In this document: positions 11,883 to 42,115 of the stretch, piece by piece
Layout: every line of letters starts with the position of its first letter
How positions within the stretch are numbered: position 1 is the first letter of the stretch
NCBI GenBank assembly: GCA_965221655.1
Contig: OZ244906.1
Location: 2,608,009-2,672,008, forward strand
Source: a bacterium
Lineage (GTDB): Bacteria; UBA8248
Direction of reading: 5' to 3'
DNA length: 64,000 nt
The notes under the pieces: generated by a model
Database searches by the model: none
Told to the model about the DNA's origin: nothing
Seen by the model: only the letters and a program-made list of their open reading frames with translations
Made by a program: the position numbers and the translations under genes

Positions 11883-12794
11883 ATGGCCCCCGGAAAAGTA
11901 CGCAAGACCGCCATCGGCTTCATCGGGCTGGGTCTCATGGGCCGGGCGTTTTCGAAAAATCTGATTGCCGACGGCCACCGCCTCCTCGGAACCGACGTGA
12001 GCACCGCCGCGCTCCGCAAGTTCAGGCGCATGGGGGGAGAAGCCCTGCCGACGCCCCGCGCCGTCGCCGAGGCCGCCGAGGTCGTGTTCATCTCGGTTCC
12101 CAATTCGCGCATATCGCTCGGGACCGCACAGGGGGAGGAGGGCTACCTCGCCTGTGCGCCCGGGGCCACCCCTGCGGTAGTGCTCGACACCACGACGTCT
12201 GATCCTGAGGACGCGAAGGAGCACGCGCTCCTTTGCCGGGCGAAGGGAATTCCCTATCTCGACGCGAGCGTGAGCGGCAACAGCGGCTACGTGGCCGAGC
12301 GCCAGGGGCTGTTTCTCGTCGGCGGAAACAAGAAGGCTTACGAAAAAGTGGCCCCGCTTCTGGGAACCATGCTTTCCGATCAGATATATTGCGGCCCCTC
12401 GGGCTCTGGAGCCGCCATGAAGGTGGTGGTGAACTACCTCACTGCGATGGGCCGCTGCGTCATCGCCGAGACCCTGCGGCTGGGGATGCGCAGCGGCTTC
12501 GGCAGGGACTTTCTTTTTGACGCCCTCGGCAGGAGCCGGGCGGGCGACTGGAGGATGTTCCACACCCACGGGGCGAAGATGTTGCGGGGCGCTTACCGGC
12601 GTCCGCTGAGCACCCTAGACGTCATCGTGAAAGACATCGGCCTGGGTCTCGAACAGGCCAGGCGCACCGGAGCCGTAACGCCGGTGGGCGACGCTTGCGC
12701 ACCGCTGTTCGATGAGGGCAAGCGGGCGGGTTACGGAGAGCTCGACAGCGCGGCGGTCTATCTCTCCTATCTCGACAGGGAAGGCGGCGCGTAA
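11883..12794 (+). CDS. NAD(P)-dependent beta-hydroxyacid dehydrogenase (3-hydroxyisobutyrate dehydrogenase family)
   Basis: IGFIGLGLMG dinucleotide motif, catalytic region DASVSG, and a C-terminal 6PGDH-like helical domain. Confidence 0.85.
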   Translation: MAPGKVRKTAIGFIGLGLMGRAFSKNLIADGHRLLGTDVSTAALRKFRRMGGEALPTPRAVAEAAEVVFISVPNSRISLGTAQGEEGYLACAPGATPAVVLDTTTSDPEDAKEHALLCRAKGIPYLDASVSGNSGYVAERQGLFLVGGNKKAYEKVAPLLGTMLSDQIYCGPSGSGAAMKVVVNYLTAMGRCVIAETLRLGMRSGFGRDFLFDALGRSRAGDWRMFHTHGAKMLRGAYRRPLSTLDVIVKDIGLGLEQARRTGAVTPVGDACAPLFDEGKRAGYGELDSAAVYLSYLDREGGA

Positions 12795-13879: not shown

Positions 13880-14623
13880 GTGGAACTGAAGGACAGGGTG
13901 TTCGTCATCACGGGTGCGGCGCGGGGTATCGGCGTAGCGGCCGCGCGCAGGTTCGCGGGGCAGGGCGCGCACGTGGCTGCCCTGGACGTGGATGAGGAGG
14001 CGTTGCGCAGCCTTGAGGCTGAATCGGCACGGGCTATTCTCGGCGTGCGTGCGGACGTTTCGGGCGCACATGGCGTGGAGAGCGCCTTCGATGCGGTGAT
14101 GCGTGCTTTCGGCGGCGTGGACGTGCTCGTCAACTGTGCGGTGGTTCGCGGCAACGGCCCCCTGGCCGAGGTCGAGGAGGCCACCATCGACGCGGCCCTG
14201 GCCGTGGGTTTGAAGGGCGTCATCCTTTGCGCACGGCGCGCGGCGCGGGAGATGGCCGGGCGCGGCGGCGGGGCCATCGTCAACATGTCGAGTTTCTACG
14301 CCCACACGCCGGCGAAAGAGCGTGTGGTCTACGCAGCCGTCAAGGCGGGCGTCGAGGGTCTTACGCGCGCACTGGCGGTCGAACTGGCCGAAGACGGCGT
14401 ACGTGTAAACGCCGTCGCGGCGGGTCCAGTGCTCACCAAACTGCGCGAGGAGCGCGGAGACGCTGACCCGCGCACCATGGCGGAGCGCTACCGCAAATCT
14501 CCCATGGGCCGGTTCGGCCGGGTCGAGGAAGTACTCGACGCCATCGAATACCTGGCGACGCCGCGCTCTTCCTACATGACGGGCCACGTGCTGATGCTCG
14601 ACGGCGGGCTGACCATCGTGTGA
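13880..14623 (+). CDS. SDR family oxidoreductase
   Basis: ITGAARGIGVAAA glycine motif and the S..Y..K catalytic triad (YAAVK). The track ORF begins at a TTG at 13832. The GTG at 13880 gives a standard SDR N-terminus. Confidence 0.8.
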   Translation: MELKDRVFVITGAARGIGVAAARRFAGQGAHVAALDVDEEALRSLEAESARAILGVRADVSGAHGVESAFDAVMRAFGGVDVLVNCAVVRGNGPLAEVEEATIDAALAVGLKGVILCARRAAREMAGRGGGAIVNMSSFYAHTPAKERVVYAAVKAGVEGLTRALAVELAEDGVRVNAVAAGPVLTKLREERGDADPRTMAERYRKSPMGRFGRVEEVLDAIEYLATPRSSYMTGHVLMLDGGLTIV

Positions 14624-14661
14624 GCCGCGCGGGTCGCGTGCTTGGCCCGGCGTCTAGGTTT

Positions 14662-15100
14662 TCAGGGACACCAGGGCTTGCGTCGTCTGCCCTTGTAGGG
14701 CCGCCCGTGGCCCGTGTCGATCATGATGCGGGCGAAGTCGCGTCCGTCGGCAAGTTTCACGTTCGCGCCCACGCGCTTGCCGAATTTGTCGTCCTTCACG
14801 CCGGTGAGGAGCACCTTGCCCCTCTTGCCCACGAGTTGCTTCGCGTAATCGCGCGCTGCCTCGCCGCGTCGGCGCTCCGCAGCGCACTTCGCCCCTCCGA
14901 TTTCGGGGCTGTCCATATGCAGCACGCGCACGTTGACGCGCACCGTCTGGCGCACCCATATCTTCGCTTCCACGTGGAGGGTGTCGCCGTCGATCACCCG
15001 CAGCACGGTTGCGGGCACGCGCAACTCGGCCGCGGCGGGCGTCGCGAACACCGACGCGGCGAACGCGAGAACGAGACACGCTGACTGAGGAGAAGAAAAC
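14662..15100 (-). CDS. thermonuclease (SNase-like) family secreted protein
   Basis: Staphylococcal-nuclease-like motifs (RVIDGDTL, DSPE, and conserved Arg and Glu) preceded by a signal-peptide-like segment. The start (TTG near 15100) is uncertain. Confidence 0.6.
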
Positions 15101-15152
15101 GGCGTACCCAAGGGTTTTCCCTTCTTGCAGATTCCAAAAGTTATAATTCTAT

Positions 15153-15181
15153 ATTTTATGGTTTTATAAAAAAATCTGCAA
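15153..15181 (-). promoter_or_regulatory. sigma70-like promoter for the thermonuclease gene (-35 TTGCAG, 17-bp spacer, -10 TAAAAT on the minus strand)
   Basis: Read directly in an AT-rich spacer. The reverse complement reads TTGCAG-N17-TAAAAT. Confidence 0.4.
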
Positions 15182-15467
15182 TTGATGAAGACAGGCGCTT
15201 CGTCTCGGCGCCGCCCCCGACCGCCTTTGGGCTTCACCCCGAACCGGGAGTCGAAAAGAGACCCGCGATGGAAAAACGCGTGGACACCGCCCTGGGTTGC
15301 GGCTTAAAGCAAGAATTTCTGCATGGGAAGCGGTTTGTGCGTCGTACAAGCCTTCGGGTGGGTCGGCGCGGCCCACGTGAAATGGATGGGGATGGGGTGC
15401 GTTGTGCGGCGTTCCGCTCGGCCGGGGTGGGCTTCTCCGTTTCTCGGGGAGGTGCGCGAGGTAGAGG

Positions 15468-15564
15468 TGGCGGGAACGCGTGGGAGTCGAACCCACCGAC
15501 GAAGTGATTAGCCCCGTCCACTGGATTTGAAGTCCAGGCGGCACACCGGCACCGATGCGCTCCC
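15468..15564 (-). tRNA. selC: tRNA-Sec (selenocysteine tRNA), anticodon UCA
   Basis: The minus-strand sequence GGGAGCGCATCGGTGCCGGTGTGCCGCCTGGACTTCAAATCCAGTGGACGGGGCTAATCACTTCGTCGGTGGGTTCGACTCCCACGCGTTCCCGCCA is 97 nt. It has an 8-bp acceptor stem (GGGAGCGC/GCGTTCCC), a CUUCAAA anticodon loop with anticodon UCA, a long variable arm, a 5-bp T stem with loop TTCGACT, and an encoded CCA. The CTGGACTTCAAATCCAG and GGTTCGACTCC blocks are nearly identical to E. coli selC. Confidence 0.85.
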
Positions 15565-15694
15565 GCGAGAAGGATACACCGCACGGGGCTGGTTCTGAAA
15601 GTGTGCCGGGCGTCTCGCCCGCGTGGTGCTTGTCCTGTGGGCGAGAAAACCCTACAACGAGACGCAACGCATTTTCACCAAAGGAGACGAAGGG

Positions 15695-16597
15695 ATGACG
15701 CAACGTGTGGGCATCGTGGGCATGGGGCTGATGGGCCAGGCCTTCATCAAGAACATGCGCGAGACGGGCTTCGATATACAGGGCTTCGACGTGGACCCCG
15801 CGCGCATGGACGATTTGCGCGCACAGGGCGGCGCGCCCGTCGCCACGCCCGCCGAGGCGGCCGGGGGCGTGAACTTCGTGATCACCTCTCTGCCCAACAG
15901 CACCATCGCCCGGGAGGCGACCCTGGGGGCGGGGGGCATCGCCGAGGGGGCGAAGGAGGGGCTGTACCACCTCGACACGACGACCTCGCGCCCCGAGGAT
16001 TCGGTGCGCCTCGCCGAAGACCTCTCCCGCCACGGAATCCGCTTTCTCGATTCCGCCGTGAGTGGCACGAGCACGATGGCCGTCCAAAAGGACCTGGTGG
16101 TCGTCGCGGGTGGGGAGGCGGAGGATTTCGACGCCTGCCGCGCCGTCTTCGCGGGCTTCAGCCGCGCGGCGTACTACATGGGACCCGTGGGCTCGGGGGC
16201 GCGCACGAAGCTGGTCATCAACATGATTCTGGCGGGCAATCGCCTGGCCCTGGCCGAGGGGCTGCTGCTCGGCACGAAGGTGGGCCTCGAGATGGATACC
16301 CTCCTCGAAGTTCTCAAGGACGGGGCGTGCTCTTCAAAGACGATGATCGACAAAGGCCCCAAGATGATTTATGGCGACTACTCCAAGCAGGGCCAGGTGA
16401 AGACCTCGCTCAAGGATTCGCGCCTGATGATCGAGCAGGGCCGCCTCCACGGCTCTCCCATGCTGATGACGAACCTCTGGTCCCAGGTCGTGCAGATGGC
16501 CTACGAGCGCGGCTACGCGGAGGAGGATACCGTCGCCTTCTACGAAGTCCTGCGCGAGATGGCGGGCCTGCCCCCGCGGATTGAGGGTGGAGGGTGA
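15695..16597 (+). CDS. NAD(P)-dependent beta-hydroxyacid dehydrogenase (HIBADH family)
   Basis: The RBS AAGGAGACGAAGGG precedes an ATG. VGIVGMGLMG motif, DSAVSG catalytic region, and a C-terminal helical domain. Confidence 0.85.
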   Translation: MTQRVGIVGMGLMGQAFIKNMRETGFDIQGFDVDPARMDDLRAQGGAPVATPAEAAGGVNFVITSLPNSTIAREATLGAGGIAEGAKEGLYHLDTTTSRPEDSVRLAEDLSRHGIRFLDSAVSGTSTMAVQKDLVVVAGGEAEDFDACRAVFAGFSRAAYYMGPVGSGARTKLVINMILAGNRLALAEGLLLGTKVGLEMDTLLEVLKDGACSSKTMIDKGPKMIYGDYSKQGQVKTSLKDSRLMIEQGRLHGSPMLMTNLWSQVVQMAYERGYAEEDTVAFYEVLREMAGLPPRIEGGG

Positions 16598-16662
16598 TGG
16601 TGGGGAGGATGTTGATGGGAGCAACTCGGTTAGTGGGAATGTCCGTATGGAGAGTTTCCTGC

Positions 16663-17313
16663 CTATGTTGGCTCCGATGGGAGATTTTCTGCGAATTCGT
16701 ATCCTTCTTTTGTCTCCCATGCCATGCCGTTGTAAGTCACACTCAGTAGTTTCGCGGTAGGAACGAAGCACTCGAGATCGATAGTTTTAATATCTCCGTA
16801 AAGGGTTTCTCGAAATTTTTCGTCGAGACAAGGAAACTTCAAACTCCGGGGCTCGCCAAAATTTTCTTGTGAGCATTGACAATCTTTGAGGTAGTTACGG
16901 CATTTATGACATCTCATGTATTTGTTTATCGATTTCCAAGCATTCTCGTTGGGAGTGTATAGCAGATAAAGTCGAAAAGGCTGCACATTCGCGTGCCCAA
17001 ACCCATTCCGAAATATGACTGTGCGTTCGATAGCTTCATGAATGGTTTTTTCTTCTTTCCATTGTGGCCAAATATCCAGGAAACAATTTTTCAAGTCTCC
17101 AAAACTGAATTTGCTGAGTTCCAGCCTTCTCCGTGCGAAATCCTCGGGGAAACTTCCGTTCTTAACTGCCGCGTTGTATCGTCTGCGCATGTCCCTCCCT
17201 CCTTCACGAAGTACTACTAAATCGCGCATAGAACTTTCGATACAACGAAGGAACATGAAACATTCACCAGCCGATATTAGATGGGGGTCGTCCTGCACCA
17301 TTTTGCTTTTCAT
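16663..17313 (-). CDS. hypothetical protein with a HEPN-like Rx4H motif (RNGFGH) and a C-terminal Cys cluster, encoded in a low-GC islet
   Basis: 216-aa ORF in a roughly 40%-GC stretch flanked by about 67%-GC DNA. Contains R-N-G-F-G-H (an Rx4-6H HEPN signature) and CHKCRNYLKDCQC. Confidence 0.5.
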   Translation of the reverse strand: MKSKMVQDDPHLISAGECFMFLRCIESSMRDLVVLREGGRDMRRRYNAAVKNGSFPEDFARRRLELSKFSFGDLKNCFLDIWPQWKEEKTIHEAIERTVIFRNGFGHANVQPFRLYLLYTPNENAWKSINKYMRCHKCRNYLKDCQCSQENFGEPRSLKFPCLDEKFRETLYGDIKTIDLECFVPTAKLLSVTYNGMAWETKEGYEFAENLPSEPT

Positions 17314-17368
17314 TGTGTGTCATCTCTTGCTTTTTGCGTCCCGATGCAGTTCGGATTCACCCCCCCCC

Positions 17369-18316
17369 TCACCCCTCCCCGCGCAGTGCAGGTGGGTAGG
17401 GGGCGAAGTAGGTCTGGGCTCCGAGGTAAGGGGAGCCCGGGTGCGCTATCCATTCGCGCAAGGTGTCGAACGCAATCTGCGGCGAAGCACCCCCCGCGCG
17501 GTATTCCTCCAGTGCGGCGTGAAAGCGTTTTTTCTCACCTGACGTGATTTTGTCGGAAAAATGCCCCGCCGCGTGTGTTAAGGCGTTGACGTGGGCCGCG
17601 CGCGTGGGCGGGCGCGAAAGCGCACGCAAGAGTGCGTTTTCGTAATCTGCGGCGAGCGGGCCGAACGCGCGTTTGGCGTGGTTGGCCGCGATGCGCCCCA
17701 TCTCGCGCATGGTCTCCTGGTGGTAGGCCAGGAAGAGCAGCTTGTTCTCCGTATGGTAGCGCGCGAGACGGGCGGGCTCTTTCGATTTCCTGACTGCGCG
17801 GAAGCCCGCAAGAGCGAAGAGTTTGGTGAGAAAGTGTGCGCGCGCCTCCGCTTCGTTCAGCTGTGCCTCATCCGTTACGGCGAGGGTGCCGAAGCGCGCG
17901 AGGACGTTTTCGGCGAACAGGCCCGCTCCCAGGGCGAGGGGAGTTTCCGAGGCGGGGCCGGCGAACGCCTTGGTGTCGGTGATTCCGCATGAGGGGGATT
18001 TCGACTTGAGGATGAAGCCGTCCACCTCGCTCAGCCCGTCCAGAAACGCATCGGCGAAAGCGTGCATCGCGTGCGTGAGGTCTTTTTGCGTGGAGGGTTG
18101 CAAGAGGGTTTTCCGCCCCTCCCGCATACAGATGCGGATGGGGTCACGCGGCGTGCCCAGGCCGATCTCCACTTCGGGACACACGGGCTGGAAGCGCACG
18201 TAGGGTCGGAGGCGATTCAGAAAGGGAGAGGCGATGCCCGCCCCGTCGTAACGGCATGCGTCGAAGCCCAGACACCGACTCGCGACGACGCAGGGGCGGG
18301 GGAACTCTCGGGTCAA
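17369..18316 (-). CDS. DUF523/DUF1722 fusion protein (YbgA / TudS-like family)
   Basis: N-terminal CLGFDACRYDG pattern typical of DUF523 (the 2-thiouracil desulfurase-like Fe-S domain) followed by a DUF1722-like helical domain. Confidence 0.7.
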   Translation of the reverse strand: MTREFPRPCVVASRCLGFDACRYDGAGIASPFLNRLRPYVRFQPVCPEVEIGLGTPRDPIRICMREGRKTLLQPSTQKDLTHAMHAFADAFLDGLSEVDGFILKSKSPSCGITDTKAFAGPASETPLALGAGLFAENVLARFGTLAVTDEAQLNEAEARAHFLTKLFALAGFRAVRKSKEPARLARYHTENKLLFLAYHQETMREMGRIAANHAKRAFGPLAADYENALLRALSRPPTRAAHVNALTHAAGHFSDKITSGEKKRFHAALEEYRAGGASPQIAFDTLREWIAHPGSPYLGAQTYFAPYPPALRGEG

Positions 18317-18365
18317 GGCGCGTCTCCCCGGGTGCGGGCGCAGCGTCGCGCCGGGTTTCGGGAGC

Positions 18366-20147
18366 CTAGGCGTAGTCGTAGAATCCCTTGCCCGTCTTTC
18401 TGCCGAGCCAGCCCGCCGCGGTCATCCGGCGCAGGATGGGTGGAGCGTAGAACCTGGCTTCGCCCAGTTCTTCGGCCATCGAATCCGCGACGAACGTCTG
18501 CACGTCCACCCCCACCAGGTCGATGAGGGTAAGCGGCCCCATGGGGTGCCCCAGACCCATGCGGATGGCCTTGTCCATGCTCTCCCTGTCCGCCAGCCCG
18601 TCGTCGAACGCCTGCGCGGCGTGGTTGAGATAGGGCACGACGAGGCGGTTCACCAAAAATCCGGGCCTGTCCTTGGCGAAAATCGGCGTCTTGCCGATGC
18701 GCTCGCAGAACGCGATTCCGAACTGGGTGATTTCAGGGGCCGTCTGCACCGCCTCGATCACCTCGACGAGCCGCATGGCGTAAGGGGGGTTGAAGAAATG
18801 CAGGCCGAGCACGCGCTCGGGGTGCTTCGTTTTGGCGGCCATGGAGGTGACGGGAAGACACGAGGTGTTCGAGGCGAGGATGGCGTCGGGCCTGACGATC
18901 TCCGCGATTTTCTCGAACAGTGCGAGCTTGGCCTCGAGGTTTTCCACGATCACTTCGATGACGAGGTCGCACTCCGCCAGTTCATCCAGTTCGGTCGTGC
19001 CGTGCAGGCGGTCGAGAGCCTCGCGTTTTCGGTCCTCCTCCATCTTGCCGCGCTTGACTGCGCCCTCCAGATTCGCGCGAATCCGTTGCAGACCGGCCTC
19101 CAGGAGTTCGGGGTTCGCCTCGATGGCGACGACTTCGAGCCCCGATGCAATGCAGACCTGCGCGATGCCCGAGCCCATGGCGCCGATTCCGATCACCCCG
19201 ACTTTTCGAACCGCATCGGCTATGGGTCGGCCCTCCGACACGTCGCGCTCCCGCTCCGCGTCCACTTCGGGTTCGGCCACGCCGAACACGCCCGCGGATC
19301 GGTAGGTGTAAAACCCCTTGCCCGTCTTCGTCCCCAGATGGCCCGCGTCGATCATGCGGTCCACCAGCGGCGGAGGAATGTACCTGGGGTCCTTGAGTTG
19401 TTCGTACATCGAGAGAGAGACCGTGCGGTGAATGTCGAGCCCCTCGATATCGAGCAGGCGCATGGGCCCCATCTTGTAGCCCAGGCCGAGCCGTACGCCC
19501 GCGTCCAGGTCCGCCGGCGTGGTGTAGCCCGACTCGATGAGGCGAATACAATCGTTTTGAAACGCCACGAGGAAATAGTTGAGCACGAAGCCGGGCGCGT
19601 CCTTCACGACGACGGGCGTCTGGCCCACTTCTTCGAGAAAGGCCGTCGTCGCGCCCAGGGTCTCCTCGCTGGTGAGCAGGCCGGGGGCGACCTCCACGAG
19701 CTTGTTGAGTGCGGCAGGCAGGCAAAAGTGCATGCCGACCGTCCTGTCCGGCCGCCCCGACGCTGCCCCCATGTTCGATATCGAGAGCGTGCTGGTGTTC
19801 GAGGCCAAAATGGCGTTCTCGTCCAGCACTGCGTCGAGGTTTCGAAGCAGAGCGTTTTTTTCGGCCTGGTTCTCCGTGATGGCCTCTATCACCATGTCGC
19901 ATCCGGCCATTGCGGAGAGCGACTCAGCCCGGTGAATGCGGCCGAGAACGGCGTCCCTTTCCTCTGGTGAGGTCTTGCCCTTTTGCACGCCCGCGTCCAG
20001 AAACGCGCGAATTCGGCCCATGCCCGCTTCCATGGCCGCAGCGTCGACCTCGAACACGCTCGTTTCTTTGCCGCCTCTGGCACATACGATGGCGATGTTC
20101 GACCCCATCGTCCCCAAGCCGACGACGCCGACTTTCTTGATGCCCAT
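18366..20147 (-). CDS. 3-hydroxyacyl-CoA dehydrogenase family protein with two tandem complete HBD-like units
   Basis: Two copies of the GxGxMG Rossmann motif (VGVVGLGTMG and VGVIGIGAMG). Each is followed by the S/N..S catalytic region and a 3HCDH C-terminal domain. 593 aa. Confidence 0.85.
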   Translation of the reverse strand: MGIKKVGVVGLGTMGSNIAIVCARGGKETSVFEVDAAAMEAGMGRIRAFLDAGVQKGKTSPEERDAVLGRIHRAESLSAMAGCDMVIEAITENQAEKNALLRNLDAVLDENAILASNTSTLSISNMGAASGRPDRTVGMHFCLPAALNKLVEVAPGLLTSEETLGATTAFLEEVGQTPVVVKDAPGFVLNYFLVAFQNDCIRLIESGYTTPADLDAGVRLGLGYKMGPMRLLDIEGLDIHRTVSLSMYEQLKDPRYIPPPLVDRMIDAGHLGTKTGKGFYTYRSAGVFGVAEPEVDAERERDVSEGRPIADAVRKVGVIGIGAMGSGIAQVCIASGLEVVAIEANPELLEAGLQRIRANLEGAVKRGKMEEDRKREALDRLHGTTELDELAECDLVIEVIVENLEAKLALFEKIAEIVRPDAILASNTSCLPVTSMAAKTKHPERVLGLHFFNPPYAMRLVEVIEAVQTAPEITQFGIAFCERIGKTPIFAKDRPGFLVNRLVVPYLNHAAQAFDDGLADRESMDKAIRMGLGHPMGPLTLIDLVGVDVQTFVADSMAEELGEARFYAPPILRRMTAAGWLGRKTGKGFYDYA

Positions 20148-26014: not shown

Positions 26015-29000
26015 ATGGAAACTCCAATGGCGTCGGCTCCCAAGACCTTGCTTGCCGCTCCTTTTCATCATTTGGAGCCGCTCCTGGCCGCGCGGGTGCG
26101 GCGGCTCGGCGGGGGAGACCCCCTGGCGCACCGCCGCGTCGTCGTCATCTCGAACCGGCTGCGCGATCACGTTCAGAGGGTGCTCGCCCGCGCGGGCGGT
26201 TTCGCCGGGGTGTCGGTTCTGGCGATGCTCGATCTCGCGCGTGAGGTGGCAGACACCCCCGTCGGCAGTCTCGCGTCGATGTCCCCGGTGGTCGCCGAGG
26301 TGCTGGCGGAGCAAGTACTCGAAGACGCACGGGGGGAGCTGGCCTTTTTTCGCTCCGCCGCACGGGGCTACGGAAGAAGCCTCTACGCCACGCTGACGGA
26401 CCTGAGCGAGGCGAACCTCTCGCCCGACGCCTTGGAGAAATTAGCGCGCGACACGTCGGGTGCGGACGCAGCGAGGTGTGCGGATCTGGCGCTTCTCGCA
26501 CGGCGTTTCGAGGGTGCGATGTTCGCGCGAAATGCCTGCGACGGCCCTCTCCTGTTCCGGATGGCGTGCGAGGAGGCCGAAGCCGCTCCTCCGTGCGTGC
26601 CCACCATCTTCTACGGTTTTGCGGAGATGAACGCCCTGCAGTGCAGGCTGGTGGCGGCGGTGAGCCGCAGGGCGGAGGTCCATGCCCTGGTGCCTGCTCG
26701 GCCCGAGGCGCCCGCCTGCGCGCACGCTGTGCCGCTGCTCGAGCGGTTTCAGGAGATGGGCTTCGTGCGTGAACAAGTGCGGGATTGCGAGGCGCGGCCG
26801 CTCTCCGCAGTGGCGGACGCCTTGTTCTCGCGCGGTATGCGGGCCGAACCGCCGCCCGAGGGTGCGCTGCGCATCGTCTTGACCTCCTCCCCGGGCCGGG
26901 AGGCGCGCGAGGTGTGTCGGGAGATGTTCGCGGCCAGAGCCGAGGCGAAAGGGGCGGACGCTCTATGCGTGTTGACGACCGACGGGAATCGCTACCAGAC
27001 CCTGTTCGAGGAGACGTGCGCGGTGCTGGACGCTCCGTGCCGCACCGAGGAGCCGGGGGCGCTATCCGCAGCGCCTGCGGGGCGTCTGTTTCTCTTGATG
27101 CTTGATTTGAAAGCGAGGGGCTACCCGCGTGCTGGGTTGATGCGCTTTCTGGGCGAGGGTGGCTTCGCGCGCTCAGCGACGTTTCGGGAGATGACGCGCG
27201 CGCATGGGCTGGAAAACTTGGCCGAAGGCTCGCTCCTTGCCTCCCGGTGGGAGTTTTTCTCGAGAGAATTGCCTTACGTGCGTGGCCGCGCCGCCTGGCT
27301 TGCCGCGTTGTCCTCGGCATGTGGCGAGTTGCAAGAAGAAGACGAGGAATATCCGGTTGCGTATTCGCTCGCCGTGGCGCTGCCCGAGGTTTTCGGGCTG
27401 CTTGAGAAAATACCCGAGCACGCCGCACCCTCTGTGTTCGCCGGCGCGGCGGCGGAGGCCTTTGGGGCGACTACTTGCGACGTGCAGGGCAGCAAGCAAG
27501 TCGAAGAACTCCTCTTCTCCCTCGTGCATTTGGACGACATTCTGGCCGAGGTGACGCACGAGGAGTTTTGCGCGTTGTGCGAGCGGTTTCTCGAGAAGAC
27601 GCCGGTGCGCGACGCAGAGCGGGGGACCGCGCACCTGGCGAGCCTCTCCTCCATGCAGGGTGCGCGCGGGTTTTCCTTCGACACTGTCGCCGTGGCGGGT
27701 ATGACGGAGGGCGTGTTTCCTCCCCGGGGGGCGGAGGATCCCCTCCTGCCCGACGCCCTGCGCGAGGAGATAAACCGCGCCGCCGCGCGTGTTTTCGGAG
27801 AGGGGGTGGCGACGCTTCCCCTCAAGAAAATCCGCGAGCGCGAGGCGCGTTTTCAGTTGTGGACGATTCTGCAATCGGTTCGCGGGCGCTTGATTCTCTC
27901 GACGCCGGGTCTGGATGAGGATTCCGCAAGGGAGGATGCGTCTTTCCCGAGTCCTTTTTTCGACTATCTGGCCGAGACGCTCGAGGGGAGTGCGGAGCGT
28001 GTCTTGGCCCCGCTCGCCCGGAGCGCAGGCGCCCCTGCAAACTACGTGCACACGCTCGAGTACGATCTCGCACGCATTGAGGAGCAGATCGAAAAACCGG
28101 AGGCGGGCAGCCTCGCCTACCTGAATGCCTTCCCCGGCTTTGCCCGCAGGCGCGCCGCCCTGGCCGCGCGGTGGCGCGAGGGCGTTCTGACGGCCCATGA
28201 CGGATTGTTCGCCTCTCCCGACCTGCGCGATGCGATTCTGGCGAGAGTCCGCCCGCCCGCCGAAGCGATTGGGGTCACCTCGCTGGAGGGTTTCTTCGGC
28301 TGTCCCTATCGCTTCCTCTACGCCCGCCTCTATCCGCGTATGAAGCGGCGCGAGGAGCCCGCTCCGCCCCTGGCTGCCGATGGTTTGCTTCGGGGCGAAT
28401 TGGCGCACGCTGTTCTGGAGGCGCTTCACCGCAGATTGCTGGAGGCGGGCTGCGGGTTTCAGGAGATGGACGAGTCGACCCTCTCTGGCGCACTTGAGCA
28501 GGCGATTCGCACGGTCATGCACGAGAAAACACAACAGACGGGAGCGCCGCTCCTGCTTTCCCTTCCCTGGGAGGCGCTTGCGGGCGAGTTGCGCCGCCGC
28601 TTGTTGGATTACCTGAAAAGCAGGCGCGCGCAGGGTGCGGGCTGGCAGCCCGTGTGCGTCGAGGAGCGCTTTGGCACAGAGGCCGCGCTGCCCATGTGCA
28701 TACCCCTGGAGGGAGGAGAAATTTCTCTGGCCGGGAAGATAGACTTACTCGAGCGCGGCGCGCAGGGCGCATACCGGGTGGTCGATTTCAAGACCCTAGG
28801 GGGCAAGGGCAACGTTCCGTCAAAGAACGAGCTGCTCAGCGGCGGCGCGCGGCTTCAGCTCCACCTCTACGCGCGGCATCTGCTGCGCGAGGGCCACTTG
28901 CCTGCGGACGCCCGCGTGGGCGGCGTCTACGTCTACCTCACCGAGGAGGGAACCATCGAGCGGGCACGCGCGCATGAGGAGCTCGAGGAGGAGCGGGGGC

Positions 29001-29191
29001 GGGTGGATGCGCTGCTGGGCGATTTTCTCGCACTGGTCGGGGGTGGAATGTTCTTCCCCACTCCTTCGGATGCCTGCAGGTATTGTGACTACAAGGCCCT
29101 GTGCGGCCCCGACAGGAACGAGCGCTTTGAGCGCAAGAAGACCGCCCTTGAGGCGGGCAGACTCATCGCGTTGCGGGAGGCCGCCCCGTGA
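26015..29191 (+). CDS. addB: AddB/RexB-like helicase-nuclease subunit (PD-(D/E)XK nuclease with a C-terminal Fe-S cysteine cluster)
   Basis: 1058 aa. The C-terminal VVDFKT...CRYCDYKALCG matches the AddB nuclease/Fe-S domain. Its stop overlaps the start of the following UvrD-like gene. Confidence 0.75.
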   Translation: METPMASAPKTLLAAPFHHLEPLLAARVRRLGGGDPLAHRRVVVISNRLRDHVQRVLARAGGFAGVSVLAMLDLAREVADTPVGSLASMSPVVAEVLAEQVLEDARGELAFFRSAARGYGRSLYATLTDLSEANLSPDALEKLARDTSGADAARCADLALLARRFEGAMFARNACDGPLLFRMACEEAEAAPPCVPTIFYGFAEMNALQCRLVAAVSRRAEVHALVPARPEAPACAHAVPLLERFQEMGFVREQVRDCEARPLSAVADALFSRGMRAEPPPEGALRIVLTSSPGREAREVCREMFAARAEAKGADALCVLTTDGNRYQTLFEETCAVLDAPCRTEEPGALSAAPAGRLFLLMLDLKARGYPRAGLMRFLGEGGFARSATFREMTRAHGLENLAEGSLLASRWEFFSRELPYVRGRAAWLAALSSACGELQEEDEEYPVAYSLAVALPEVFGLLEKIPEHAAPSVFAGAAAEAFGATTCDVQGSKQVEELLFSLVHLDDILAEVTHEEFCALCERFLEKTPVRDAERGTAHLASLSSMQGARGFSFDTVAVAGMTEGVFPPRGAEDPLLPDALREEINRAAARVFGEGVATLPLKKIREREARFQLWTILQSVRGRLILSTPGLDEDSAREDASFPSPFFDYLAETLEGSAERVLAPLARSAGAPANYVHTLEYDLARIEEQIEKPEAGSLAYLNAFPGFARRRAALAARWREGVLTAHDGLFASPDLRDAILARVRPPAEAIGVTSLEGFFGCPYRFLYARLYPRMKRREEPAPPLAADGLLRGELAHAVLEALHRRLLEAGCGFQEMDESTLSGALEQAIRTVMHEKTQQTGAPLLLSLPWEALAGELRRRLLDYLKSRRAQGAGWQPVCVEERFGTEAALPMCIPLEGGEISLAGKIDLLERGAQGAYRVVDFKTLGGKGNVPSKNELLSGGARLQLHLYARHLLREGHLPADARVGGVYVYLTEEGTIERARAHEELEEERGRVDALLGDFLALVGGGMFFPTPSDACRYCDYKALCGPDRNERFERKKTALEAGRLIALREAAP

Positions 29192-32100
29192 GCGCGCAGC
29201 CTCTCGATCAGAAAGAAAGGGATGAAGCGGCGCACTGGACGCAAGGCCCCGTTCTGGTGGAGGCGGGTGCGGGTACGGGCAAGACCACCCTGCTTGTCGA
29301 AAGGATGCTCCACCTGATTCTGCACGAGCGCGTGCGCATCGACGAGATAGCCGCCATCACCTTCACCAGAAAGGCGGCCCTGGAGCTCAGGGAGCGGGTG
29401 CGCGCCCGCCTGCTCGAGGCCGTCGGGAGCGAAGAAGACGCCGACGTGCGGCGTCGCCTCGAAGATGCGCTGGAGCATTCCGAATCCGCCAGAATTTCCA
29501 CCATTCACGGCTTCGCCCTTCGCATTCTGCGCGAGGCGTCCGTCGAGGCGGGGCTGCGGCCCGACGTGTCCGACGTGGACTTGCTCGCCTACGAGGCGCG
29601 ACGCGACGCGGCCTGGCGCGACTGGTTGGCCGAGAAGATGAGCGGCGCGCACCCGGCGTTGCGTGATTTTCTCGACTTGGGTTTCGGTGCGGCGGACTTG
29701 GAAAAAATCCGCGACGCTTTGCTCGAACTCCCCGAGTTGCGCGCATCCTTCCCGTGCTCAGCGTGGGTTTCGTGCGAGGAAGAAGCGCATACGTCGATTC
29801 GGCGGAACTTTATGGAATGGGAGTCTTTCGCCCAGGCCCATTGCGTCGACGATACGGACAAGGCGCGTTTGGAGGTAGAAGAGCTGAGAGACTGGTTCGA
29901 TACTCTTGCGGACCTTTCCCGGACGCAGATGCTGCGCGCACTCTGGCAGCCGAGCCGGAAACTGAACAAGCGGGTGGGCAGCGCCGCGAAATGGGGGGAG
30001 ACGAAAGAAGAGGGCGGGAAGATCCTGAAAGACTTTCGCGGCATGTATGATTCTATGCTCGGTAGAGCCGCCGCGATTCTGGGTCAGGGGATTCTCGCGG
30101 AGGTAACGGCCCTCGTCGCCGGCTTTGCCGAATCTTTTGAGAACGAAACCCGCGAGGCGGGTCTTTTGTCCTACAGCGACATGCTGTTTCTGGCGACGCG
30201 GCTCGTTCGGGAAAGCCCCGCCGCGCGGACGCGCATACGCCGCGGCATTCAACATTTTCTGGTGGACGAGTTTCAGGATACCGACCCCTTGCAGGTGGAG
30301 TTGATATTCCTGCTGGCCGGAGAGGAGGATGATGCGCTCGACTGGCGCAAGACGCCCCTGGAAGGAGCGAACCTCTTCCTGGTGGGCGACCCCAAGCAGT
30401 CCATCTACCGGTTTCGGCGGGCGGACATCGCTATCTACCACGAGGTGAAAGAGCGCATCGAACGCCTCGAAAGCGGGCGCGTCCTCTACATTCGGGAGAA
30501 TTTTCGCAGTGGTGCGGGTGTGCTCGATTTCGTGAACGCGGTTTTCTCGCGCGCCATCGTTCCCGAACCCGAGATGCAGCCCGCATACGTCGCCCTCGAG
30601 ACCGGCTCGAAAACAAGAGGGGGCGGGACGTTTCTCATCGAGGAGCGAAAAAACGAAGGAGGTGAAGAAGGAGACGTCCCCAAACCCACTGCTGAGGAGC
30701 GGCGCGCGCATGAGGCCGCCCTCCTCGCCGCCTCCATCCGCGAGTTGGTGAACGTGCGCAGGGTGGAGATTCGTGAAGGGGGCGCGCGCCGTCCGGCCCG
30801 TTACGGAGACGTAGCGGTGCTCTTTCGTACGCGCACGGGTTATTCTGCCTTTGAGGCCGCCTTCAGGAGTGCGAACATCCCCTTCGTGTCGGACGGCGGA
30901 CGGGGTTTTTACGAAAAATTCGAGGTCGGTGCGGTCGTCTCCGTCCTTCTGGCGGTGCTGCGGCCCGCCGATCCGCTGGCGTTGGCCGCCGCCCTGCGCT
31001 CCCCGCTATATGGTTTCTCGGACGAGGACATTGCCCGCTATTTCCTCGAAATCGCGGATGTGCCTGCCGACATGGTAGAGGCCGTTCGGGAGATTCATCT
31101 CTTGCACGAGAAAAGAAAGGATGTGAGCCCCCGTGCGCTTTTGGAGGAAATCTATCGCCGCACCGGGGCGTTCGAGCTTTTTCTCGCATCCTCAGAGGGG
31201 GAGCAGCGTGTCGCCAACCTGTGGAAGCTGCTCGACATGGCCTTCGAGTTCGCAGGCGACGGCAAGCGGGGAGCGGACGACTTCGCCGCGCATGTAGAGG
31301 CACACTACGCACTGGGGCGCGAGGCGAAAGAACCCGAGGCGGTACTGAGTACGGACAAGGCCGAGGCCGTGCGTTTCATGACCATCCACCAGGCCAAGGG
31401 ACTGGAATTTCCCGTGGTCGCCATGGCGGATTTGGAAGGGCGCGACTCGTCGGGATCGACCCTCTGGGTCGCTGACCGCACGAAAGAAACAGTCGACCTG
31501 GGTGTGGGGCCGAAAGGAAGGCGCCTGGTTTCCATGGGCTACGAAGATGCGCTCGCGCGGGAGAAAAAATTCGAAAAAGCGGAAAATGTGCGCCTTTGGT
31601 ACGTCGCCGCGACCAGAACGCGGGACTGGCTGCTTTGGCCGAAGGCGAGCCTGGGGTCGTTTTTGGAAAAAGCAGGCGTGAACGCCCAGGAGGGGGAGGC
31701 GATCGCGCGCATGGCTTCTCCTCTTGCAGTTGAACGGGGTGTGTTCGAGCCCGCCCCGCCCATCCTGCGCGTGCGCGATGCGGCTTTTCACGCAAGCGAC
31801 GCAGGCTCCATGTCCGCACCCGGGGACAGGGAAGAACTCGAAGCGAAGCTTGCGCGCCTGAAAAAGCCGGCGCCCTCCCGTGCGTTTCTCGCTCCCAGCA
31901 GCCTGGTCGAGAAGGGGGTGTTCGACGATGCGGGGCCGGAGGCGGCGGCCGACGGAATCCCCCCCGGAAGCGCGGACGTTCACGCGGGGGGGACGGCATT
32001 CGGAAGGCTCGTGCATTCGATTCTCGCGCGCCTGGAGCCGCCGAGCGTCGCACGCCTCGAGATCCTGCGCGCGGAAAGCCTCGCCCACGCCCGGGCTCTG

Positions 32101-32505
32101 GCCCTGGACGAAGAGGACGCGGCGCATGCAATCTCGTTGATTCGTCGCTCCCTGGAGGGGGGCGTACTGCGGCGTGCTGCCGCCGCCACCAGACGCCTGC
32201 GGGAGTTGCCCTTCATGTTCGAGGTGGAAGGCAGGGCTGTTCGGGGGTTCGTCGATTTGGTATGGGAAGAGAAAGGCGCATTGACTATAGTGGATTTCAA
32301 GACCGACCGCGTAACGGCGGAGGGAGCCCCCCGAAGGGCCGAGCTCTATGCAAACCAGGGGGGAGCCTACGCCATGGGGCTGGAGGCGGCGACGGGTCTC
32401 GCCGTGCGGGAACTGGTGTTCGCCTTCCTGCGCCCCGGAGTGGACGTTCCGCTGCCCGTGGACGATCTTCTCAGGCGAAACGTTCGCGCGGCGGCGGCGA
32501 GGTAG
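29188..32505 (+). CDS. addA: AddA/RecB-like UvrD-family helicase with a C-terminal PD-(D/E)XK nuclease
   Basis: Walker A GAGTGKTT, UvrD helicase motifs, and the C-terminal FVDLVWEEKGALTIVDFKTD nuclease motif. 1105 aa. Confidence 0.85.
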   Translation: MSAQPLDQKERDEAAHWTQGPVLVEAGAGTGKTTLLVERMLHLILHERVRIDEIAAITFTRKAALELRERVRARLLEAVGSEEDADVRRRLEDALEHSESARISTIHGFALRILREASVEAGLRPDVSDVDLLAYEARRDAAWRDWLAEKMSGAHPALRDFLDLGFGAADLEKIRDALLELPELRASFPCSAWVSCEEEAHTSIRRNFMEWESFAQAHCVDDTDKARLEVEELRDWFDTLADLSRTQMLRALWQPSRKLNKRVGSAAKWGETKEEGGKILKDFRGMYDSMLGRAAAILGQGILAEVTALVAGFAESFENETREAGLLSYSDMLFLATRLVRESPAARTRIRRGIQHFLVDEFQDTDPLQVELIFLLAGEEDDALDWRKTPLEGANLFLVGDPKQSIYRFRRADIAIYHEVKERIERLESGRVLYIRENFRSGAGVLDFVNAVFSRAIVPEPEMQPAYVALETGSKTRGGGTFLIEERKNEGGEEGDVPKPTAEERRAHEAALLAASIRELVNVRRVEIREGGARRPARYGDVAVLFRTRTGYSAFEAAFRSANIPFVSDGGRGFYEKFEVGAVVSVLLAVLRPADPLALAAALRSPLYGFSDEDIARYFLEIADVPADMVEAVREIHLLHEKRKDVSPRALLEEIYRRTGAFELFLASSEGEQRVANLWKLLDMAFEFAGDGKRGADDFAAHVEAHYALGREAKEPEAVLSTDKAEAVRFMTIHQAKGLEFPVVAMADLEGRDSSGSTLWVADRTKETVDLGVGPKGRRLVSMGYEDALAREKKFEKAENVRLWYVAATRTRDWLLWPKASLGSFLEKAGVNAQEGEAIARMASPLAVERGVFEPAPPILRVRDAAFHASDAGSMSAPGDREELEAKLARLKKPAPSRAFLAPSSLVEKGVFDDAGPEAAADGIPPGSADVHAGGTAFGRLVHSILARLEPPSVARLEILRAESLAHARALALDEEDAAHAISLIRRSLEGGVLRRAAAATRRLRELPFMFEVEGRAVRGFVDLVWEEKGALTIVDFKTDRVTAEGAPRRAELYANQGGAYAMGLEAATGLAVRELVFAFLRPGVDVPLPVDDLLRRNVRAAAAR

Positions 32506-40601: not shown

Positions 40602-41482
40602 TCAGGCGTCCAGCCCCGCCGCCTCGTCGAAGAACGCGCGCACGGCGTTTTGGTCCGCTTCGCCAAAGCCCATCGCCGAGGCGGATATGAGCACTTGCCT
40701 CGCCAGGGCGGCGAATGGCGTCGGGGTCGTGGCCGCGTCGGCCATCTCCGCGATGAGGCGCAGGTCCTTGCGCATCAAGTCGACCTTGAAGTAGGTCGTG
40801 TAGTCTCTCCTGGCCAGGGCGTCGCCCTTGATGCCGAGGATCTTCGGTATCGAGGCCTGCTTCATGTACTCTATCATCGCAACGGGGTCGAGTCCCGCGC
40901 GTTCGCCAAGTGTGAGGCCTTCGGACACCACGGAGAGGAACACCGAGACAATCTGGTTGGCCACGAGCTTCATGTGCAGACCCGCACCGTTCGGCCCGAA
41001 GTGGTGGATGGATTCGGATACCGCCTCGAGCACGTCGCGGTGGCGGTTCATGGCCTCCTCGTCTCCGCCGACCATCACGTTGAGTTCGGCGCGGACGGCG
41101 CTGGGGGCGCTCCCGCTCACGGGCGTGTCGAGAAAAATCGCGCCCCGCTGTGCGGCTTCCTGAGCGATGGCCTGGCTGCCGCCCGGGGCGATGGTCGAAA
41201 AATCGAAGCACACCACACCCGCAGGCGCGCCCAGGAGCGCTCCTTTTTCTCCCAGGTAGGTCTCGCGTACATCCTGGGTCTCGGGTACTGAGGAGCAGAC
41301 GACTTGTGCCTGTGCTGCGGCTTCGGCGGGGGAATCGAACGTTTTTGCTCCCGCATCTTCCGCGCGGGCGCGCGCCTCGGGTGCGGGGTCGAACCCGTGC
41401 ACTTCAAACCCTGCCTTTATCAGATTACCCACCATGGCCCCGCCCATGGTGCCCAACCCAAGGTACGCAACGATTTTCGACA
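40602..41482 (-). CDS. NAD(P)-dependent beta-hydroxyacid dehydrogenase (HIBADH family)
   Basis: VAYLGLGTMG motif, DTPVSG catalytic region, and a C-terminal helical domain. GTG start with a GGAGAAACC RBS. The N-terminal extension in the track is rejected. Confidence 0.8.
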
Positions 41483-41704
41483 CGGTGGTTTCTCCCCGGA
41501 TGCGCGGACGGCGCGCAAAATCCGTCCGCTTGCCTGTTGTGTGCGCTTGCGCCAATTCTAGCGTATCGCCGGGGCAGGGGACACCGGCGCGGCTTGCCTT
41601 TTTCCTTTCCCTCGGCTATGGTTCGGCTTTCGTTTCGGGGCGTGGCGCCTCCGCGCACCCCGAAATTTGGGTGACGGACCGGTTTCGACGATAGAGGTTT
41701 CGCG

Positions 41705-41854
41705 ATGCGCGAGAACATTCAGCTCGAATGCACGACTTGCAAGAGGATGCGCTACACCACCACGAAAAACAAGCGCAACACGCCGGATCGGCTCGAGTTC
41801 AAAAAGTACTGCAAGTTCTGCCGAGGGCACGAGCCGTTTCGGGAGATCAAGTAA
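41705..41854 (+). CDS. rpmG: 50S ribosomal protein L33
   Basis: 49-aa peptide [49 protein letters not shown] with the L33 Cys4 zinc-ribbon pattern. It is absent from the ORF track because it is too short. Confidence 0.85.
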
Positions 41855-42115
41855 ATGAAGACCCACAAGAATACCGTGGCGCGCAAGCGTTGCGTCGTGA
41901 CTGGCAAGAGCGTCATGTACGGCAACAACGTCTCGCATTCGCACAAGAAGACAAGAAGAAGATTCGAAGCCAACCTCCACACCAAGCGTTTCTACCTTCC
42001 CGATGAGAAGCGCTGGGTGAAGTTGCTCGTCTCTGCGCGCGGCCTCAAGATAATCGCCAAGCGCGGCATCTCGAAAGTCCTGGCCGAGGTCAAAAAGCGC
42101 GACGGCGCCCTCTAG
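41855..42115 (+). CDS. rpmB: 50S ribosomal protein L28
   Basis: The ATG overlaps the L33 stop (TAAATG). The sequence TGKSVMYGNNVSHSHKKTRRRFEANLH is a typical L28 core. Confidence 0.85.
   Translation: MKTHKNTVARKRCVVTGKSVMYGNNVSHSHKKTRRRFEANLHTKRFYLPDEKRWVKLLVSARGLKIIAKRGISKVLAEVKKRDGAL

What the first reader, a model, noticed from the sequence alone, without database searches (positions are those of the whole stretch)
15468..15564. Unannotated selenocysteine tRNA (selC) on the minus strand
A 97-nt tRNA with anticodon UCA, an 8-bp acceptor stem, a long variable arm and blocks nearly identical to E. coli selC (CTGGACTTCAAATCCAG, GGTTCGACTCC). It sits in the 458-bp gap between the thermonuclease gene and a HIBADH gene. 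This establishes that the organism decodes UGA as Sec and supports the selenoprotein call at 61325..62002, 46 kb away. No selA, selB or selD gene is in this window, so selC is unlinked from the rest of the machinery here.
Basis: seen in the sequence. Interest (0 to 1): 0.65.

Follow-up and report, generated by a model that had tools for sequence, protein, structure and literature searches.

The report
Ordinary selenocysteine tRNA gene (selC)
This is a genuine, standard bacterial selenocysteine tRNA gene in an uncultivated Nitrospinota-type bacterium; bacteria deposited under that name are already known to use selenocysteine heavily, so the call is correct but ordinary.

Summary
ARAGORN calls one tRNA in the 64-kb window, tRNA-SeC (anticodon TCA), at 15468..15564 on the minus strand. 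Rfam tRNA-Sec (RF01852) matches it full-length at 74.8 bits (gathering score 47, E 1.6e-13).

An unconstrained fold gives the bacterial 8/5 cloverleaf: 8-bp acceptor stem, 6-bp D stem with a 4-nt loop, a long variable arm, a 5-bp T stem, G73 and an encoded CCA. This is element-for-element like E. coli selC.

The same gene sits at the same position in six fetched relatives. A pattern search found it in 26 species-representative genomes; every one with a phylum-level name is a Nitrospinota MAG. It is 98-99% identical where flanking DNA is 72-83% identical. Three stem pairs change by compensatory double substitutions.

A client gene exists. The AhpD-like ORF at 61325..62002 has TGA at codon 84 in four orthologs, Cys there in 9 of 12 full-length homologs, and an invariant hairpin with a GGUC loop just downstream.

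No selA, selB or selD is in the window. The rest of the genome could not be searched.

BSepDB (2026) already lists NCBI-labelled Nitrospinota MAGs among the selenoprotein-richest bacteria. Verdict: real, functional, already-known kind; low interest.

The parts
15468..15564 (-). tRNA-Sec gene (selC), 97 nt. Anticodon UCA is at tRNA nt 35-37 (window 15530..15528). It has an 8/5 acceptor/T domain, a 6-bp D stem with a 4-nt loop, a 7-bp variable arm, G73 and an encoded CCA.
   Evidence: ARAGORN; Rfam RF01852 at 74.8 bits; MFE fold; covariation on 13 distinct orthologs; side-by-side comparison with E. coli selC.
15571..15599 (-). Conserved promoter-like block upstream of selC: TTCAGA (15599..15594), a 17-nt spacer, then TATCCT (15576..15571). 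The second hexamer lies at -12..-7 from the mature 5' nucleotide. Its function is inferred, not shown.
   Evidence: In an ungapped comparison of -45..-1 in the window plus 26 loci, TGTAT at -14..-10 and T at -7 are conserved in at least 85% of 27 loci, including distant loci whose other upstream sequence does not align. The match to the sigma-70 consensus is 8 of 12, so the scan, which needs 9 of 12, missed it.
61325..62002 (+). Candidate client gene: an AhpD/carboxymuconolactone-decarboxylase-like selenoprotein of 225 codons with the redox motif C-A-Y-U.
   Evidence: Translation. NCBIfam hits to the peroxidase-related, YciW-related (seleno)protein and AhpD-related (seleno)protein models, all below their cut-offs. 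Nine of 12 full-length homologs carry Cys at the TGA position. Four orthologs keep TGA at codon 84.
61574..61576 (+). In-frame TGA (codon 84), read as selenocysteine.
   Evidence: Sequence. It is conserved as TGA in L007, L037 and L038, while third-codon positions across the gene are only 69-78% identical.
61591..61608 (+). SECIS-like apical hairpin: GUCGCUU / GGUC loop / AAGCGGC. The extended stem spans 61580..61612. The stem starts 14 nt after the TGA.
   Evidence: Fold. The six codons ACG TCG CTT GGT CAA GCG are invariant in all four orthologs, including their third positions. The folding energy is not better than shuffles (z = -0.11), so support comes from position, loop sequence and conservation.

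Best explanation
This is the genome's selC gene, encoding a canonical bacterial tRNA-Sec.

Inferred mechanism, from established knowledge of the bacterial Sec pathway:
- Seryl-tRNA synthetase charges the tRNA with serine, using the long variable arm and G73.
- SelA converts Ser-tRNA-Sec to Sec-tRNA-Sec with selenophosphate made by SelD. SelA recognises the 6-bp D stem with its 4-nt loop.
- SelB, which recognises the 8-bp acceptor stem that also excludes EF-Tu, delivers the tRNA to UGA codons followed by a SECIS hairpin.
- At least one such client is in the window: the AhpD-like gene at 61325..62002, where Sec replaces the second Cys of a CxxC redox motif.

Shown here: the gene, its fold, its conservation and covariation, and the conserved TGA with hairpin in the client gene. 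Inferred: charging, conversion and delivery, because selA, selB and selD lie outside the window and no expression data exist.
For: - ARAGORN calls tRNA-SeC (tca). Rfam tRNA-Sec scores 74.8 bits against a gathering score of 47, E 1.6e-13, full length, and wins the tRNA clan competition.
- The MFE fold equals the 8/5 cloverleaf with a 6-bp D stem and 4-nt loop, the same architecture as annotated E. coli selC folded the same way.
- An ortholog sits at the same position in 6 relatives. It differs at 1-2 of 97 nt, both in loops, apart from the last base of the CCA tail. Flanking DNA there is 72-83% identical.
- A further 26 species-representative genomes carry it, and ARAGORN calls all of them tRNA-SeC.
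- On 13 distinct sequences, 99.8% of cells pair. Compensatory double changes occur at 6-88 (CG to UA), 7-87 (GC to AU) and 53-61 (GC to UA). Slid controls drop to 36-56% paired.
- Client gene: TGA at codon 84 is conserved in 4 orthologs. Nine of 12 full-length homologs have Cys there; the other three have Trp (one) or Ser (two). An invariant hairpin with a GGUC loop follows.
- Literature: the defining tRNA-Sec features are described in PMC7609411. NCBI-labelled Nitrospinota MAGs (GTDB UBA8248) carry 48-54 selenoprotein genes each (PMC13326102).
Against: - selA, selB and selD were not found in the window, and the rest of the genome could not be searched.
- There are no expression, aminoacylation or proteomic data.
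- Thermodynamic stability alone is unremarkable (z = -1.85).
- The invariance of the D, anticodon and T arms among the 26 pattern-derived loci is by construction of my search pattern. Only the acceptor stem and variable arm were free to vary.
- No consensus promoter or terminator passed the scan threshold.
- One ortholog (L009) has a G8-G86 mismatch.
Confidence: 0.96

Rival explanations
1. It is a tRNA-Sec look-alike that reads UGA with another amino acid: a selC*-type tRNA-Cys(UCA) or a Ser-accepting allo-tRNA.
For: Such look-alikes exist, share the long acceptor stem and long variable arm, and some carry UCA (PMC7609411; PMC5389517). One homolog of the client protein shows W at the Sec/Cys position (P0147). 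That may reflect a different reading of TGA by whoever called that gene.
Against: - selC* tRNA-Cys has an 8/4 structure with an A51a bulge and a U73 discriminator. Allo-tRNAs have a 12-bp 8/4 or 9/3 acceptor domain.
- This tRNA has 8/5 (13 bp), no bulge and G73.
- No selB*- or cysS*-like gene lies next to it.
- Rfam tRNA-Sec matches full-length, well above threshold.
Confidence: 0.02
2. It is a decaying or non-functional relic of a lost Sec trait.
For: No sel machinery genes are in the window. No consensus promoter or terminator was detected.
Against: - It is 98-99% identical across species whose flanks are 72-83% identical. Substitutions fall in loops or are compensatory in stems.
- The client gene keeps its TGA and hairpin in 4 species.
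- A conserved upstream block sits at a fixed distance from the gene.
Confidence: 0.015
3. It is an ordinary class II tRNA (Ser or Leu) that acquired a UCA anticodon, that is, an opal suppressor.
For: It has a long variable arm and G73, as in tRNA-Ser.
Against: tRNA-Ser has a 7-bp acceptor stem, a 4-bp D stem and an 8-11-nt D loop. This tRNA has 8 bp, 6 bp and 4 nt. The 8th acceptor pair, C8-G86, is kept in 12 of 13 distinct orthologs. Within the tRNA clan the Sec model is the best match.
Confidence: 0.005

Closest known systems
E. coli selC tRNA-Sec (Rfam RF01852, bacterial 8/5 type)
   Same: - 8-bp acceptor stem, 2-nt linker, and a 6-bp D stem with the identical 4-nt loop CGGU.
- Identical anticodon arm (CUGGACUUCAAAUCCAG).
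- Long variable arm, and a 5-bp T stem with the identical loop UUCGACU.
- G73 and an encoded CCA.
- Unlinked from selAB and selD.
   Different: - 97 nt against 95 nt.
- Variable arm of 7 bp with a 7-nt loop, against 8 bp with a 4-nt loop.
- Different stem sequences in the acceptor, D and T stems; 63 of 97 aligned columns are identical.
- The promoter-like -10 box lies at -12..-7 of the mature 5' end, against about -37..-32 in E. coli.
selC* tRNA-Cys (tRNA-Sec-like cysteine tRNA; Mukai et al. 2017, reviewed in PMC7609411)
   Same: 8-bp acceptor stem and long variable arm; some members have a UCA anticodon.
   Different: Members have an 8/4 structure with an A51a bulge and U73, often with selB*/cysS* downstream. 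This tRNA has 8/5, no bulge, G73 and no such neighbours.
Allo-tRNAs (PMC5389517)
   Same: Extended acceptor stem, long variable arm and Ser identity elements.
   Different: The acceptor domain is 12 bp (8/4 or 9/3). Here it is 13 bp (8/5).
AhpD-like selenoprotein family (listed in BSepDB, PMC13326102) - for the client gene
   Same: Carboxymuconolactone-decarboxylase/AhpD fold family (PF02627 in homologs). Sec replaces a Cys of the CxxC redox motif. A hairpin lies directly downstream of the UGA.
   Different: It scores below the cut-offs of the named NCBIfam (seleno)protein equivalogs: 69.5 against 310, 45.5 against 175, and 70.9 against 81.8 for TIGR01926. It is therefore a different subfamily within the superfamily.

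Membership tests
Bacterial tRNA-Sec (selC) | Anticodon UCA, complementary to UGA | tested here: met
   ARAGORN places anticodon tca at position 35. The anticodon loop is CUUCAAA.
Bacterial tRNA-Sec (selC) | 13-bp acceptor domain in the 8/5 configuration (8-bp acceptor stem, 5-bp T stem) | tested here: met
   The unconstrained MFE and centroid folds show it. Acceptor pairs 6-88 and 7-87 covary, and pair 8-86 is kept in 12 of 13 distinct orthologs. The definition is from PMC7609411.
Bacterial tRNA-Sec (selC) | 6-bp D stem with a 4-nt D loop (the SelA discrimination element) | tested here: met
   CGGUGC / CGGU / GUGCCG, the same layout and loop as E. coli selC. There is no variation to test covariation, because this arm was fixed by the search pattern.
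Bacterial tRNA-Sec (selC) | Long variable arm and G73 discriminator (SerRS identity) | tested here: met
   A 7-bp variable stem with a 7-nt loop, in which pair 53-61 covaries. G94 of the gene is the discriminator before CCA and is invariant in 13 orthologs.
Bacterial tRNA-Sec (selC) | Scores above the curated threshold of the tRNA-Sec covariance model and beats the general tRNA model | tested here: met
   RF01852 scores 74.8 bits against a gathering score of 47, and the best-of-clan match is kept.
Bacterial tRNA-Sec (selC) | Co-occurrence with selA, selB and selD in the same genome | not testable with these tools
   All three are absent from the 64-kb window and from 33 related loci. BSepDB reports the Sec pathway and 48-54 selenoprotein genes in NCBI-labelled Nitrospinota MAGs of GTDB phylum UBA8248. 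Placement of this window's genome in UBA8248 was not tested.
Bacterial tRNA-Sec (selC) | At least one client gene with an in-frame UGA, a downstream SECIS hairpin and Cys-containing homologs | tested here: met
   The ORF at 61325..62002 has TGA at codon 84 in 4 orthologs, Cys at that position in 9 of 12 full-length homologs, and an invariant hairpin with a GGUC loop starting 14 nt downstream.
Bacterial tRNA-Sec (selC) | Serylation, SelA conversion and SelB-dependent delivery | not testable with these tools
   These are biochemical steps, inferred from structure only.
selC* tRNA-Cys | 8/4 structure with an A51a bulge, and a U73 discriminator | tested here: not met
   The T stem is 5 bp without a bulge, and the discriminator is G. 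The definition is from PMC7609411.
Allo-tRNA | 12-bp acceptor domain (8/4 or 9/3) | tested here: not met
   The acceptor domain is 13 bp, 8/5. The definition is from PMC5389517 and PMC7609411.
AhpD-like selenoprotein (client gene) | AhpD/CMD-domain protein in which Sec aligns with a redox Cys of the CxxC motif | tested here: met
   Alignment A2 shows NGCAYUYAHNT against NGCxYCYAHNT in 9 of 12 full-length homologs. One has Trp and two have Ser at that position. PF02627 is present in homologs.
AhpD-like selenoprotein (client gene) | Passes the cut-off of a named NCBIfam (seleno)protein equivalog | tested here: not met
   NF053654 scores 69.5 against 310; NF041238 scores 45.5 against 175; TIGR01926 scores 70.9 against 81.8.

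The most novel reading that the evidence does not exclude
In this Nitrospinota lineage, selC may be transcribed from a conserved promoter whose -10-like hexamer (TATyyT) lies at -12..-7 of the mature 5' nucleotide. The primary transcript would then start at, or within 1-3 nt of, G1. That would make it a nearly leaderless pre-tRNA-Sec needing little or no RNase P processing. From my own knowledge, this is reminiscent of vertebrate tRNA-Sec, whose transcription starts at the first mature nucleotide. It would differ from E. coli selC, where the TATAAT box is about 25 nt further upstream.
Probability: 0.12. Interest if true: 0.4.

Novelty: already known. Interest (0 to 1): 0.1.

Why it matters
The value is practical rather than conceptual. 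A verified selC tells annotators that TGA can encode Sec in this genome. ORFs split at TGA should therefore be merged rather than called as two genes or a pseudogene.

In all three related genomes whose gene calls were available, the AhpD-like gene is split into an 83-aa and a 115/124-aa fragment. The window's own ORFs split at the same TGA.

NCBI-labelled Nitrospinota MAGs are reported to hold about 50 selenoprotein genes each. If this genome belongs to the same group, which was not tested, it probably contains many more mis-split genes outside this window. Nothing here changes what is known about Sec decoding.

Tried and rejected
- An exact 97-nt search of species-representative genomes gave 0 hits. 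The source genome is not a GTDB representative. A degenerate pattern then found 26 loci.
- Exact-protein look-ups of the HIBADH-like protein, L28, L33 and the 100%-identical P0001 all returned 'not on record'. The source contig could therefore not be fetched or searched for selA, selB or selD.
- The listing of cluster members returned no names or accessions.
- I looked for an att-like direct repeat of the tRNA 3' end, as expected for a tRNA-targeted island. There is no second copy with up to 3 mismatches. The variable 3' flank therefore has no integration footprint.
- I first took the nuclease-like ORF 3' of selC to be unique to this genome. That was wrong: L011 and L032 carry a 57%-identical copy at the same place.
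- The zero-spacing junction at 41705..42115 is two adjacent ribosomal-protein genes (L33 and L28), not a recoding site.
- A systematic scan for other in-frame TGA junctions flagged only unrelated adjacent genes that share a frame (PGA_cap/SDR; homoserine dehydrogenase/TPP enzyme), plus the AhpD-like gene.
- I considered a functional link between selC and the TudS-like gene because the two stay close in distant relatives. The order 3HCDH - TudS - ... - selC is simply ancestral, with variable filling.
- The consensus promoter/terminator scan found nothing.
- A permissive Rfam search of 14500..17500 gave only chance-level extra hits.

Full report
**1. Observation**

ARAGORN finds exactly one tRNA in the 64-kb window: tRNA-SeC with anticodon tca at 15468..15564 on the minus strand. 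A gathering-threshold scan of all 4227 Rfam families gives a single hit, RF01852 tRNA-Sec. It covers 15472..15564 on the minus strand at 74.8 bits (gathering score 47, E 1.6e-13), with model positions 1-91 of 91 and no truncation. A permissive rescan of 14500..17500 adds only chance-level hits.

The unconstrained RNA fold (MFE equals the centroid) is a cloverleaf with these parts:
- an 8-bp acceptor stem (one G-U pair) and a 2-nt linker;
- a 6-bp D stem with a 4-nt loop;
- a 5-bp anticodon stem with loop CUUCAAA;
- a 7-bp variable-arm stem with a 7-nt loop;
- a 5-bp T stem with loop UUCGACU;
- discriminator G and an encoded CCA.

The folding energy itself is not exceptional (z = -1.85). The statistical weight lies in the covariance model and in the comparative data below.

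**2. Comparison with the reference molecule**

The best local similarity in 5423 of 5426 complete E. coli genomes falls on the annotated tRNA-Sec. I fetched one annotated copy, folded it the same way and aligned it.

The architecture is the same element for element. Differences are the stem sequences and the variable arm: 7 bp with a 7-nt loop here, against 8 bp with a 4-nt loop in E. coli.

**3. Relatives, organism and selection**

The HIBADH-like neighbour (15695..16597) has a 100%-identical entry on a 2,934,324-bp NCBI/ENA contig. It also has 83-91%-identical homologs on Mb-scale contigs. The source contig could not be fetched.

Six related loci were fetched. All carry a tRNA-SeC at the same position. 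Those copies differ from the window's at only 1-2 of 97 nt, both in loops: D-loop nt 17 and variable-arm loop nt 58, apart from the last base of the CCA tail. The surrounding DNA is 72-83% identical.

The exact 97-mer is not in the species-representative genomes. A pattern with the acceptor stem, variable arm and loops left free hit 26 of them. Every hit with a phylum-level name is a Nitrospinota or Nitrospinaceae MAG, from marine and sponge metagenomes. All 26 are called tRNA-SeC.

On the 13 distinct sequences, 99.8% of stem cells pair. Three pairs show compensatory double changes: 6-88 CG to UA, 7-87 GC to AU, and 53-61 GC to UA. Further changes are G-U to G-C or A-U to G-U. Sliding the 3' partners by 1-3 columns drops pairing to 36-56%.

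One caveat applies. The D, anticodon and T arms were fixed by my search pattern, so their invariance in that set is by construction. One ortholog (L009) has a G8-G86 mismatch.

**4. Local anatomy**

selC is divergent from the HIBADH-like gene and co-oriented with a weakly SNase-like ORF at 14662..15237.

Homology with most relatives ends exactly at the tRNA 3' end (15468/9) and resumes at the stop of the SDR gene (14623). In most relatives only 16-54 bp separate the two. The 844-bp filling with the nuclease-like gene is shared only by L011 and L032 (57% amino-acid identity). L002/L024 has a 5.5-kb ABC-transporter block there instead. No repeat of the tRNA 3' end exists in the window, so there is no integration footprint.

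Upstream, an ungapped comparison of -45..-1 in 27 loci shows TGTAT at -14..-10 and T at -7 conserved in at least 85% of loci. In close relatives TTCAGA lies 17 nt further up. In the window this reads TTCAGA 15599..15594 and TATCCT 15576..15571. This is 8 of 12 matches to the sigma-70 consensus, below the scan's threshold of 9 of 12.

If this block is the promoter, transcription starts at or very near the mature 5' end. E. coli selC has its TATAAT box about 25 nt further upstream. This is inference only.

**5. Sec machinery and client gene**

Pfam scans of about 55 called genes show no SelA, SelB-wing or AIRS (SelD) domains. Six-frame tblastn with E. coli SelA, SelB and SelD finds nothing at E <= 0.01 in the window or in 33 related loci. 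So selC is unlinked from the machinery in this lineage, as it is in E. coli. Whether the genome has the machinery could not be tested.

The ORF at 61325..62002 translates to an AhpD-like protein with ...NGCAY[TGA]YAHNT.... The evidence on it is:
- NCBIfam hits are to peroxidase-related and '(seleno)protein' AhpD/YciW models, all below their cut-offs.
- Nine of 12 full-length homologs (49-63% identity) carry Cys at that position, making a CxxC motif. P0147 has Trp, and the two longer proteins P0121 and P0122 have Ser.
- The closest database entries are C-terminal fragments of 115-124 aa, meaning gene callers stopped at the TGA.
- Three orthologous loci (L007, L037, L038) have TGA at the same codon 84, with both halves conserved. 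Third-codon positions are only 69-78% identical gene-wide, yet the six codons forming the hairpin core are invariant.
- The hairpin (7-bp stem, GGUC loop) starts 14 nt after the TGA. From my own knowledge, GGUC is also the apical loop of the E. coli fdhF SECIS. Its energy is not better than shuffles.

A window-wide scan for other in-frame TGA junctions found no further candidate.

**6. What is known**

The features that define bacterial tRNA-Sec are reviewed in PMC7609411. They are the 13-bp acceptor domain, the 8-bp acceptor stem as the SelB determinant and EF-Tu antideterminant, the 6-bp D stem with 4-nt loop as the SelA determinant, and the long variable arm.

The same review describes the look-alikes: selC* tRNA-Cys (8/4, A51a bulge, U73) and allo-tRNAs (12-bp 8/4 or 9/3). 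This tRNA meets all the tRNA-Sec structural criteria and fails the defining criteria of both look-alikes.

BSepDB (PMC13326102) lists three NCBI-labelled Nitrospinota/Nitrospinae MAGs (GTDB phylum UBA8248) among the ten bacteria with the most selenoprotein genes (48-54). It also lists an AhpD-like selenoprotein family. I could not determine whether this window's genome belongs to UBA8248 or to Nitrospinota in the strict sense.

**7. Verdict**

The object is a standard selC gene that routine tools detect. Near-identical copies exist in dozens of public genomes, and organisms deposited under the same phylum name are already documented as heavy Sec users.

Novelty: already known. Interest: low (0.1). 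The only mildly unusual point is the conserved promoter-like box abutting the mature 5' end, which is untested.

Noticed in passing
window 14624..15467: The stretch immediately 3' of selC is a variable spot in this lineage. The window, L011 and L032 carry a weakly SNase-like gene there (57% amino-acid identity). L002/L024 carry a 5.5-kb branched-chain ABC-transporter block. Most relatives have only 16-54 bp. Homology breaks exactly at the tRNA 3' end, but there is no att-like repeat and no integrase.
   Followed up: yes
window 16598..17368 (ORF 16663..17313, minus strand): A low-GC patch (0.575 against about 0.64) holds a Cys-rich 216-aa ORF with no Pfam match. It lies between the HIBADH-like and TudS-like genes. 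The same slot in relatives holds very different cargo. L004/L005 have two tyrosine integrases, HU, TetR, a TrwC relaxase and TraG/VirD4, which looks like an integrative conjugative element. L002 has a 1754-aa DUF4011 helicase. L003 and L006 have an HD-domain gene, and L003 also an Eco57I-like gene. This looks like a second insertion hot spot with an unidentified target.
   Followed up: partly
window 15571..15599 (minus strand); L008-L033 upstream of selC: A conserved TGTAT..T block lies at -14..-7 of the mature tRNA 5' end in 27 loci, including AT-rich distant Nitrospinaceae whose other upstream sequence does not align. It suggests a -10 box abutting the mature 5' end, and hence a near-leaderless transcript. 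E. coli selC has its TATAAT box about 25 nt further upstream.
   Followed up: partly
L007 5698..6375; L037 1171..1848; L038 1074..1751; window 61325..62002: Public gene calls split the AhpD-like selenoprotein gene into an 83-aa and a 115/124-aa protein in every related genome examined. This is a systematic mis-annotation at the Sec TGA.
   Followed up: yes
protein P0147 (alignment A2): One full-length homolog has Trp at the Cys/Sec position (NQCSYWFAHNT). This may be a TGA translated as Trp under a different genetic code by the depositor, that is, another hidden Sec.
   Followed up: no
window 41705..42115: The ribosomal protein L33 and L28 genes abut with zero spacing in the same frame (stop codon directly followed by ATG). 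This mimics a read-through junction but is two separate genes.
   Followed up: yes
window 49867..54622: A cluster of TatA, two MoeA-type genes (one fused to a PBP-like domain) and MoaA. It points to molybdo-/tungsto-enzymes such as formate dehydrogenase, the commonest bacterial selenoprotein, encoded elsewhere in the genome.
   Followed up: no
window 11883..12794, 15695..16597, 40602..41483 (minus strand), 44873..45739: There are four paralogous beta-hydroxyacid (HIBADH-family) dehydrogenase genes within 34 kb. The window is generally dense in short-chain and GFO/IDH/MocA oxidoreductases.
   Followed up: no
L013, L015, L016, L017, L023, L032 (3' end of selC): The terminal CCA is encoded in the window and most relatives. 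Six species have GCCG instead, so the last A must be added by the CCA-adding enzyme there.
   Followed up: no
L008 361..5355; L009 4060..7937; window 17369..20147: The gene order double-3HCDH dehydrogenase, then TudS-like (2-thiouracil desulfurase + DUF1722), then ..., then selC is kept from the high-GC sponge/marine group to the AT-rich Nitrospinaceae. The genes between TudS and selC are exchanged (Zn-ADH with or without an M24 peptidase, against HIBADH plus variable cargo).
   Followed up: yes
window 26072..32505: An AddAB-type pair: a 1039-aa PD-(D/E)XK nuclease protein followed by a 1105-aa UvrD-helicase/PD-(D/E)XK protein, with overlapping stop and start codons.
   Followed up: no
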